From Aplysia californica (taxonomy: Eukaryota): DNA of 63,865 nucleotides. The notes under the pieces were generated by a model. It had not been told where the DNA came from. It ran no database searches and worked only from the letters and a program-made list of their open reading frames with translations. Shown piece by piece: positions 42,237-42,355 of this stretch. Both the position numbers and the translations under genes were made by a program. The stretch is taken from NCBI RefSeq assembly GCF_000002075.1, contig NW_004798025.1, positions 205,717 to 269,581 on the forward strand, given 5' to 3'. The number at the start of each line of letters is the position of its first letter. The stretch's first letter is position 1.

Positions 42237-42355
42237 ATGTTCTCCTCCCTGCGGCTGTTGGTTATGTGTGTGGTTCTCGCCGCCTTCGTACATCACACAC
42301 AGGCTTGGTGGTGGTTAGGAAGATGGTGGTATGGTTACAGAGATGTTGCTCCTCC
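42237..42355 (+). CDS. Paralog 2 coding exon 1 (signal peptide + Trp-rich segment)
   Basis: ATG at 42237; ends CCT CC|gtaagt. Conserved in the duplicate at 54007. Confidence 0.88.

What the first reader, a model, noticed from the sequence alone, without database searches (positions are those of the whole stretch)
42237..42355. Trp-rich peptide fused to the N-terminus of the B12-binding domain
Seen: after a predicted cleavage site (HHTQA|), paralog 2 begins WWWLGRWWYGYR and paralog 3 begins WWLDTWWYGYRK. Trp and Tyr are kept while the spacer changes charge (GR vs DT). Paralog 1 has an acidic, disordered linker instead. Known: short Trp/Arg-rich stretches are membrane-interface or antimicrobial motifs and also drive aromatic stacking and adhesion. 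Inference: the segment could target microbes or membranes (nutritional immunity), anchor the protein in mucus or matrix, or act as an aromatic lid replacing the missing alpha domain over the corrin ring.
Basis: partly seen in the sequence, partly recalled or inferred. Interest (0 to 1): 0.75.

Follow-up and report, generated by a model that had tools for sequence, protein, structure and literature searches.

The report
Tryptophan-tipped B12-binder-like sea hare protein
Two duplicated sea hare genes encode small, likely secreted relatives of our vitamin B12 carriers that begin, after a predicted signal peptide, with a tryptophan-packed 12-residue tail, which their closest snail relatives lack and which likely acts as a sticky anchor rather than an antibiotic.

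Summary
42237-42355 is the first coding exon of a 170-aa Aplysia californica protein (XP_005109254): predicted 23-aa signal peptide, then WWWLGRWWYGYR. An RNA contig joins it to 45909. The rest is a lone transcobalamin/intrinsic-factor beta-domain (Z 15.9, rmsd 1.7 A). The tandem copy at 54007 keeps the aromatics, and the tip is about as constrained as the folded domain (pN 0.12 vs 0.13; pS 0.32).

WWYGY is not conserved in orthologs: it occurs in 2 of 156 proteins, the pair itself, and the 10 other members of their clade have no Trp there. Trp-first, Arg-followed tips recur in 3 of 62 other secreted homologs (chiton, caenogastropod clade), apparently independently (AU p 0.033).

New here: a co-occurring cysteine pair (C44/C145) would tether the tail beside the B12-binding loop.

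Best reading: a lineage-specific aromatic anchor on a mucosal B12 scavenger (0.4). Rivals: corrinoid lid 0.2, removable propeptide 0.15, near-neutral 0.12, antimicrobial 0.08 (charge only +2/+1, acidic protein). Nothing functional was tested, B12 binding included.

The parts
42200..42236 (+). 5' untranslated part of the first coding exon of paralog 2 (AG acceptor at 42198-42199); a non-coding exon probably lies further upstream
   Evidence: sequence; the X10 contig starts matching at 42197 with 79 unplaced letters before it
42237..42305 (+). predicted signal peptide of paralog 2, residues 1-23, ending T-Q-A
   Evidence: hydrophobicity and -3/-1 heuristic; no SignalP
42306..42341 (+). Trp/Tyr-rich tip, residues 24-35 (5 Trp, 2 Tyr, net +2)
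42342..42355 (+). end of first coding exon, fast-evolving spacer, phase-2 GT donor
   Evidence: pN 0.46 over 4 codons
45909..46100 (+). paralog 2 coding exon 2: C44, CxxC (C53/C56), strands 1-2 and helix of the beta-domain
47946..48070 (+). paralog 2 coding exon 3: B12-pocket strands, invariant W132, C145 (48067-48069)
49635..49711 (+). paralog 2 coding exon 4 to the stop codon; transcript runs on to at least 49920
54007..54122 (+). paralog 3 first coding exon: signal peptide and Trp tip (54076-54111; 4 Trp, net +1)
   Evidence: matches XP_012943972
54975..55577 (.). two assembly gaps, one of which probably hides paralog 3 coding exon 2
   Evidence: no exon-2 hit for paralog 3 in six frames; RefSeq protein has it; a 170-nt X10 contig joins an exon-2-like piece to 56552
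56552..56673 (+). paralog 3 coding exon 3
57280..57359 (+). paralog 3 coding exon 4 to the stop codon
19551..25808 (-). paralog 1 (exons 25808-25732, 25015-24794, 22326-22199, 19624-19551; 166 aa), head-to-head with paralog 2; CxxC only, no Trp tip, different subfamily
   Evidence: its splicing was not checked against reads

Best explanation
The exon encodes a predicted signal peptide and a likely retained 12-residue aromatic tail on a lone transcobalamin-type beta-domain, and the tail most likely works as a sticky interfacial anchor that holds this putative B12 scavenger on cell surfaces, lipid or mucus. Shown: exon structure and splicing, the fold, no alpha-domain, constraint on the tip between the two paralogs, absence of the tip in the nearest snail relatives, and other Trp tips elsewhere in the family. 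Inferred: secretion and cleavage after Ala23; corrinoid binding; disulfides C44-C145 and C53-C56; retention of the tip; anchoring by Trp partitioning and aromatic/cation-pi contacts. In this family the segment between signal peptide and domain is a free, fast-changing module (0 to about 45 residues). Molluscs appear to have filled it with Trp plus Arg at least three times, which fits a generic physical property better than a precise fit to a ligand.
For: Spliced contig over all four exons. Fold: intrinsic factor Z 15.9, rmsd 1.7 A over 107 residues, next unrelated fold Z 6.7; family profile hits intrinsic factor at E 3e-28. Tip pN 0.124 over 11 codons, against domain 0.125-0.139, spacer 0.46 and pooled pS 0.315; binomial p 0.01-0.03 against neutrality. 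Wimley-White interface sums -10.1 and -6.7 kcal/mol (scale recalled). The tip is low-confidence in the model (pLDDT 64 and 56, under 50 at 33-35; domain 92-98). Trp is 16/744 residues in the first 12 mature positions against 2/599 in the rest of the extension, pair excluded (Fisher p 0.003, residues not independent). The other Trp tips share composition, not sequence or spacing, and fall in three places in the tree (one clade rejected, p-AU 0.033). In the chiton protein the tip abuts strand 1 and there is no C145, so the same lid geometry cannot be general. A mussel intrinsic-factor-like protein is listed in nacre matrix, and a hit to it in chiton tooth cusps (passages).
Against: No binding, partitioning or localisation data exist for this protein. 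B12 binding is itself unshown, and the Pfam score is under the curated cut-off (19.6 vs 23.8). The selection test rests on one pair and 11 codons, and the signal peptide is even more conserved (pN 0.04). The low pLDDT may only reflect that the alignment has no depth at the tip and that the signal peptide was left on. The other three Trp tips give weak interface sums (-1.9 to -4.5). The C44/C145 tether puts the tail beside the pocket, which suits a lid as well. Tissue is unknown: three polyA runs (42.5 million reads) gave essentially no exon coverage. The nacre and tooth proteins were not shown to carry a Trp tip.
Confidence: 0.4

Rival explanations
1. Aromatic lid: the tail, tied by a C44-C145 disulfide to the loop that anchors the corrinoid, folds over the bound ligand and partly replaces the alpha-domain, slowing release or widening selectivity to cobinamide or pseudo-B12.
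For: 14 of 16 homologs with Cys at 145 have a Cys 11-19 residues before strand 1, against 8 of 42 without (p 3e-6, kin not independent); P0042 and P0055 keep this pair but lack the CxxC. C145 lies between the last two strands (DSSP), which by my strand numbering is the loop named as a ligand anchor in rat transcobalamin (passage). Isolated human TC-beta binds more weakly and holds B12 rotated about 9 degrees out of the pocket (PMC5599065). A Trp fills in for the missing base in BtuF (abstract); Arg/Trp/Tyr do so in haptocorrin (passage).
Against: Zebrafish beta-only Tcnba/Tcnbb are reported to bind with high affinity without an alpha-domain (review passage; original not held). Ten clade members, most with the same tether, have no Trp in the tail. 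Between paralogs 2 and 3 the tip is kept while the haptocorrin-type pocket positions change (K111/L113/F116 vs Q/L/S). The model shows no confident docked tip, though it has no ligand.
Confidence: 0.2
2. Short propeptide or sorting tag: the Trp cluster plus following basic residue(s) aids packing into secretory granules and is clipped off, so it is not part of the working protein.
For: All five Trp tips are followed by Arg: RR in Batillaria, RRR directly before strand 1 in the chiton, RK in paralog 3, single R in paralog 2 and P0092. The tip ends almost at the exon boundary.
Against: Paralog 2 has no dibasic or RxxR site. Its single Arg follows Tyr, and RK is a poor site (processing rules recalled).
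Confidence: 0.15
3. Near-neutral, lineage-specific extension shared only because paralogs 2 and 3 are recent copies.
For: Tail sequences are unalignable across the family. Flanking non-coding DNA of the two copies is still 73-83% identical. The motif is seen nowhere else.
Against: pN is well under pS at the tip and far under the adjacent spacer. Four TGG codons are kept while Leu, Tyr and Gly codons among them changed silently. Trp tips recur in the family.
Confidence: 0.12
4. Antimicrobial Trp/Arg peptide, free or attached, that targets bacterial membranes and couples killing to B12 withholding.
For: 6-7 aromatic residues in 12 and a strong interface score. Chiton and Batillaria tips are +4.
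Against: Net +2 and +1, with Arg replaced by Asp-Thr in paralog 3; mature proteins carry about -5 and -8 at pH 7.5; no good release site. Modest amphipathic moment, 0.30-0.41. Trp-rich antimicrobial peptides are usually +3 or more, and seawater salt weakens them (recalled).
Confidence: 0.08

Closest known systems
Zebrafish Tcnba/Tcnbb, beta-domain-only cobalamin binders (Benoit et al. 2018; seen only through passages of PMC10778862, PMC11107200 and PMC4350170)
   Same: Short protein made of the carrier beta-domain alone, no alpha-domain.
   Different: The Aplysia pair adds a cysteine-bearing extension and a Trp tip. B12 binding is reported for the fish proteins and untested here. Orthology was not tested.
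Beta-domain of intrinsic factor, transcobalamin and haptocorrin (PDB 3kq4, 2pmv, 5np4, 4kki; Pfam PF14478 DUF4430)
   Same: Same fold (Z 14.4-15.9) and conserved G114, N121, W132, G146, Y150-P152, E156.
   Different: No alpha-domain, 23-26% identity, Lys after the invariant Trp where these have Gln or Glu, and Cys at 145.
Molluscan 'gastric intrinsic factor-like' proteins (Biomphalaria XP_055872775, Lymnaea CAL1540364, Candidula CAG5129454, Plakobranchus GFN80503)
   Same: Same architecture. Biomphalaria, Lymnaea and Candidula fall in the same clade (support 85) with the same cysteines; 40% identity to Biomphalaria. Plakobranchus groups with paralog 1.
   Different: Their tails are basic, polar or Pro-rich. 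Only Plakobranchus has a Trp there, a single one at the end of its signal region.
Other Trp-tipped family members: Liolophura XP_064604809, Batillaria KAK7478927, P0092 (filed under Piridium, groups with caenogastropods)
   Same: Two to four Trp directly after the predicted cleavage site, followed by Arg.
   Different: Different clades, no WWYGY, no C145; two of them are more cationic.
Trp/Arg-rich antimicrobial peptides (indolicidin, tritrpticin; recalled)
   Same: About 12 residues, Trp-dense.
   Different: Low charge here, attached to an acidic protein, no clear release site.

Membership tests
Transcobalamin-type beta-domain (PF14478) | Beta-domain fold of TC/IF/HC | tested here: met
   Foldseek E about 1e-8; VIA Z 15.9, rmsd 1.7, 107 aligned
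Transcobalamin-type beta-domain (PF14478) | Sequence profile match | tested here: inconclusive
   P0003 19.6 bits against cut-off 23.8, P0002 no hit; 62 of 86 aligned relatives match at E<=0.01; their profile hits intrinsic factor at 3e-28
Transcobalamin-type beta-domain (PF14478) | Conserved core residues (G, ING, W, G, YxP, E) | tested here: met
Transcobalamin-type beta-domain (PF14478) | Binds cobalamin | not testable with these tools
   no assay; no ligand in the model
Canonical two-domain carriers (TC, IF, HC) | N-terminal alpha-helical domain (PF01122) | tested here: not met
   the whole protein is 170 aa and the transcript splices the signal exon straight to the beta-domain exon
Beta-only binders (Tcnba/Tcnbb type) | Single beta-domain without alpha-domain | tested here: met
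Beta-only binders (Tcnba/Tcnbb type) | High-affinity cobalamin binding | not testable with these tools
   needs a binding assay
Beta-only binders (Tcnba/Tcnbb type) | Orthology to the fish genes | not tested
   no named zebrafish sequence in the tree
Trp/Arg-rich cationic antimicrobial peptides | Net charge of about +3 or more (recalled) | tested here: not met
   +2 and +1
Trp/Arg-rich cationic antimicrobial peptides | Released as a free peptide | tested here: inconclusive
   no dibasic site in paralog 2, RK in paralog 3
Trp/Arg-rich cationic antimicrobial peptides | Kills or permeabilises microbes | not testable with these tools
   needs an assay
W(X)6W-amide neuropeptides (MIP/allatostatin B; recalled) | W-x6-W followed by a Gly-basic amidation signal | tested here: not met
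   paralog 2 has the spacing but continues Y-G-Y-R; paralog 3 has W-x5-W

The most novel reading that the evidence does not exclude
Sea hares rebuilt the missing half of the B12 sandwich: a disulfide pins a Trp-rich tail at the rim of the beta-domain pocket, and the tail closes over the corrinoid as a 12-residue stand-in for the 300-residue alpha-domain, letting an algae-eating animal sort true B12 from pseudo-B12 or cobinamide. Chitons and caenogastropods would have evolved Trp tips on the same domain independently.
Probability: 0.15. Interest if true: 0.75.

Novelty: new variant of a known kind. Interest (0 to 1): 0.38.

Why it matters
Molluscs are among the richest animal sources of B12, and the oyster preprint I read (passages) treats uptake site and function as open. 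Here is a mollusc-rich family of small lone beta-domain proteins (227 hits) with swappable N-terminal tails, and a natural experiment: three paralogs in one locus, two with a Trp tip and one without. A single deletion construct separates anchor, lid and propeptide. If the lid is real it shows a minimal way to tune corrinoid selectivity; if it is an anchor it points to where snails capture B12. If neither, it is an ordinary variable tail on a known domain.

Tried and rejected
No whole genome is held for this window, so no genome-wide paralog count and no background rate of Trp-first secreted proteins could be measured. My recollection that W/WF-plus-Arg starts are common in marine invertebrate secreted proteins is therefore untested. 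Word-index searches found only the pair's own records: 2 of 10 candidates, 2 of 16, and for residues 1-45 of P0003 only paralog 3, 1 of 2 candidates, lengths 93-298 only. The Atlas gave no usable feature hit for residues 1-45 and only generic helix matches by structure. The complex predictor was not available, so self-association was not modelled. A single-sequence fold of the chiton protein was uninformative (pLDDT 49). No run was listed as an RNA holder on record; this is no evidence either way. Rejected: neuropeptide of the W(X)6W-amide type; uncleaved membrane anchor (hydrophobic core only about 12 residues with a canonical -3/-1 site, although the model draws residues 3-31 as one helix); single origin of all Trp tips (the simpler model used wrongly rejects about 5 of 71 true clades). 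The p 0.0003 for eight unchanged codons was discarded as chosen after the fact; the whole-tip test is used instead. Three look-ups of earlier scan findings returned nothing. Benoit 2018 was not held.

Full report
What is there. The window is an Aplysia californica locus: searching with the exon at 45910 returned XP_012943972 (LOC101856929) and, through its cluster, XP_005109254 (LOC101856382), both named 'uncharacterized'. The second equals my four-exon model of paralog 2 (42237-42355, 45909-46100, 47946-48070, 49635-49711; all GT-AG). The first matches paralog 3 from 54007, whose second exon is missing from the assembly and probably lies in a gap. Paralog 1 lies on the minus strand, 25808 to 19551, head-to-head with paralog 2. 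A profile scan of six frames found eight exons, all from these three genes, and no fourth gene.

Splicing. Four runs were laid on 41900-57800. A second, 170-nt contig joins an exon-2-like piece to 56552, paralog 3's third exon. Three polyA raw-read runs (42.5 million reads read) gave depth 0 on the first exon and at most 0.08 on the second, so expression is not general; tissues are not given.

The domain. AlphaFold with an 86-row alignment gave pLDDT 92-98 for residues 61-160. It matches the beta-domains of intrinsic factor, transcobalamin and haptocorrin (Foldseek E 1e-8 to 3e-6; Z 14.4-15.9, next unrelated fold 6.7). The family profile hits human intrinsic factor at E 3e-28. Pfam DUF4430 scores 19.6 against a cut-off of 23.8 for P0003 and nothing for P0002, but 62 of 86 aligned relatives match. 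There is no alpha-domain. Beta-only binders are known: zebrafish Tcnba/Tcnbb are described as binding with high affinity (PMC10778862, one passage; the original was not held), and isolated human TC-beta binds B12 more weakly and with the ligand rotated 9.2 degrees (PMC5599065, abstract and parts 1-2 of 4 of the body). B12 binding by the Aplysia proteins is inferred, not shown.

Is the tip conserved? A profile search gave 227 hits at E<=0.001, of which 150 were listed; 77 were not seen. Of the 20 that I looked up, 14 are named as molluscs, one is filed under Piridium and five carry no species. WWYGY occurs in 2 of 156 stored proteins, the pair itself. Of 157 sequences (156 plus my paralog 1 model), 73 had a signal-like core and a whole first domain. 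After dropping 5 near-duplicates, 64 of 68 gave a cleavage guess; among the 62 outside the pair, 10 have a Trp in the first 12 mature residues and 3 have two or more: Liolophura (GRWNWWSWRRR), Batillaria (WWFRR) and P0092, filed under Piridium but grouping with caenogastropods, so probably host-derived (inference). In a 75-row tree on 106 columns (weak hits beyond P0100, partial domains and near-duplicates left out), the pair sits in a 12-row clade (support 85) with Biomphalaria, Lymnaea and two Candidula proteins; none of the other 10 has a Trp in the extension. Paralog 1 is in a different clade (93). The five Trp-tipped rows, labelled before the tree was built, are rejected as one clade (p-AU 0.033). 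Many forks are weak. No other sea-hare species turned up. So the exact motif is local to this pair, while Trp at the mature N-terminus recurs (16/744 vs 2/599 residues; p 0.003, residues not independent).

Is it under selection? Between paralogs the tip has pN 0.124 over 11 codons, like exons 3 and 4 (0.125, 0.139) and unlike the next four codons (0.46); pooled pS is 0.315. The chance of so few changes under neutrality is 0.01-0.03. This is one pair and a short stretch, and the signal peptide is more conserved still (0.039).

Between tip and domain lie C44, C53 and C56, and the domain has C145. CxxC is common in the family. Cys145 and an upstream Cys co-occur in 14 of 16 sequences against 8 of 42 (58 scored, 3 had no motif match; kin are not independent). 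Two proteins keep that pair without CxxC, and paralog 1 and its closest relatives keep CxxC alone. I infer disulfides 44-145 and 53-56. C145 lies in the loop between the last two strands, which by my numbering is the loop that PMC11107200 names among the ligand anchors (passage). The tail would thus be pinned nine residues from the tip at the rim of the pocket.

Mechanism. The tip is strongly interface-seeking (-10.1 and -6.7 kcal/mol on a recalled scale) but weakly charged (+2, +1) on proteins of pI about 4.9, which argues against a cationic antimicrobial peptide. Paralog 2 has no dibasic site, which argues for retention, though all five Trp tips are followed by Arg. Recurrence by composition rather than sequence, absence in relatives with the same tether, and the chiton case where the tip abuts strand 1 without C145 favour a generic sticky anchor (0.4). 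The lid (0.2) has the tether and precedents for aromatic residues filling in around corrinoids: BtuF W66 (PMC5269720, abstract) and haptocorrin R357/W359/Y362 (PMC4350170, passages), which align to K111/L113/F116 in paralog 2 and Q/L/S in paralog 3. It is not required by what is known. A mussel intrinsic-factor-like protein is listed in nacre matrix (10.1101/2022.09.07.507049, passages) and as the top hit of a chiton tooth-cusp protein (PMC6351634, table passage), so the family reaches extracellular matrices; those sequences were not examined.

Literature. Ten searches were run. The gene and protein ids gave 0 papers; transcobalamin + gastropod + mucus gave 0; Aplysia + transcobalamin gave 4 listings and DUF4430 7, none about these genes by title or abstract start. 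Also read as passages: 10.1101/2021.10.08.463682 and PMC5368703. I did not run a search on Trp-rich N-termini as such. The library lacks most subscription papers and I opened no supplements, where Aplysia expression tables could list these genes.

Verdict. A real, spliced, modestly constrained Trp tip on a known kind of protein. It is specific to a recent Aplysia duplicate pair, with looser parallels in other molluscs. New variant of a known kind; interest 0.38.

Noticed in passing
window 1634-1975 (-) and 9766-10140 (-): Exons of an aquaporin-like gene: the first hits Pfam MIP at E 2e-5; the second looks like its N-terminal exon by eye but had no Pfam hit.
   Followed up: partly
window 48785-49531: About 750-bp fold-back element in the last intron of paralog 2, with three nested inverted arms of 41-114 nt at 73-76%; absent from the visible part of paralog 3's intron. 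Possibly an old non-autonomous DNA transposon.
   Followed up: partly
window 56385-56457 (-), with a related copy near 47754-47860: tRNA-like match (Rfam 36 bits) just upstream of exon 3 in paralog 3, inside a block shared with paralog 2; probably a tRNA-derived SINE that predates the duplication.
   Followed up: partly
window 38459-41949 vs 50718-52961: Upstream blocks of paralogs 2 and 3 are 69-85% alike, so the tandem duplicate spans about 12 kb and includes the promoter and probable non-coding first exon.
   Followed up: no
window 13462-13918, 40140-40636, 52979-53453, 58492-58691, 60115-60583: A roughly 450-bp interspersed repeat in five copies, with heavy multi-copy RNA coverage near 53000.
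   Followed up: no
window 214-1554 vs 15726-17063; 6252-6644; 14533-14874; 39186-39590: A 1.3-kb repeat pair at 67% and ORF fragments that look like transposase or reverse-transcriptase remnants by eye; no matching Pfam hit.
   Followed up: partly
P0004 (Batillaria KAK7478927): 836-aa model that repeats signal peptide plus domain several times, probably a fused tandem array of near-identical genes; copies start WWFRR or WLFRR.
   Followed up: no
P0115, P0124, P0143, P0144: Family members with a six-cysteine module before the B12-type domain that resembles a chitin-binding domain by eye; another way of anchoring this domain to a matrix, if real.
   Followed up: no
P0014 (Lymnaea), P0012 (Biomphalaria): Same-clade relatives carry basic, Arg/Pro-rich tails in place of the Trp tip.
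   Followed up: partly
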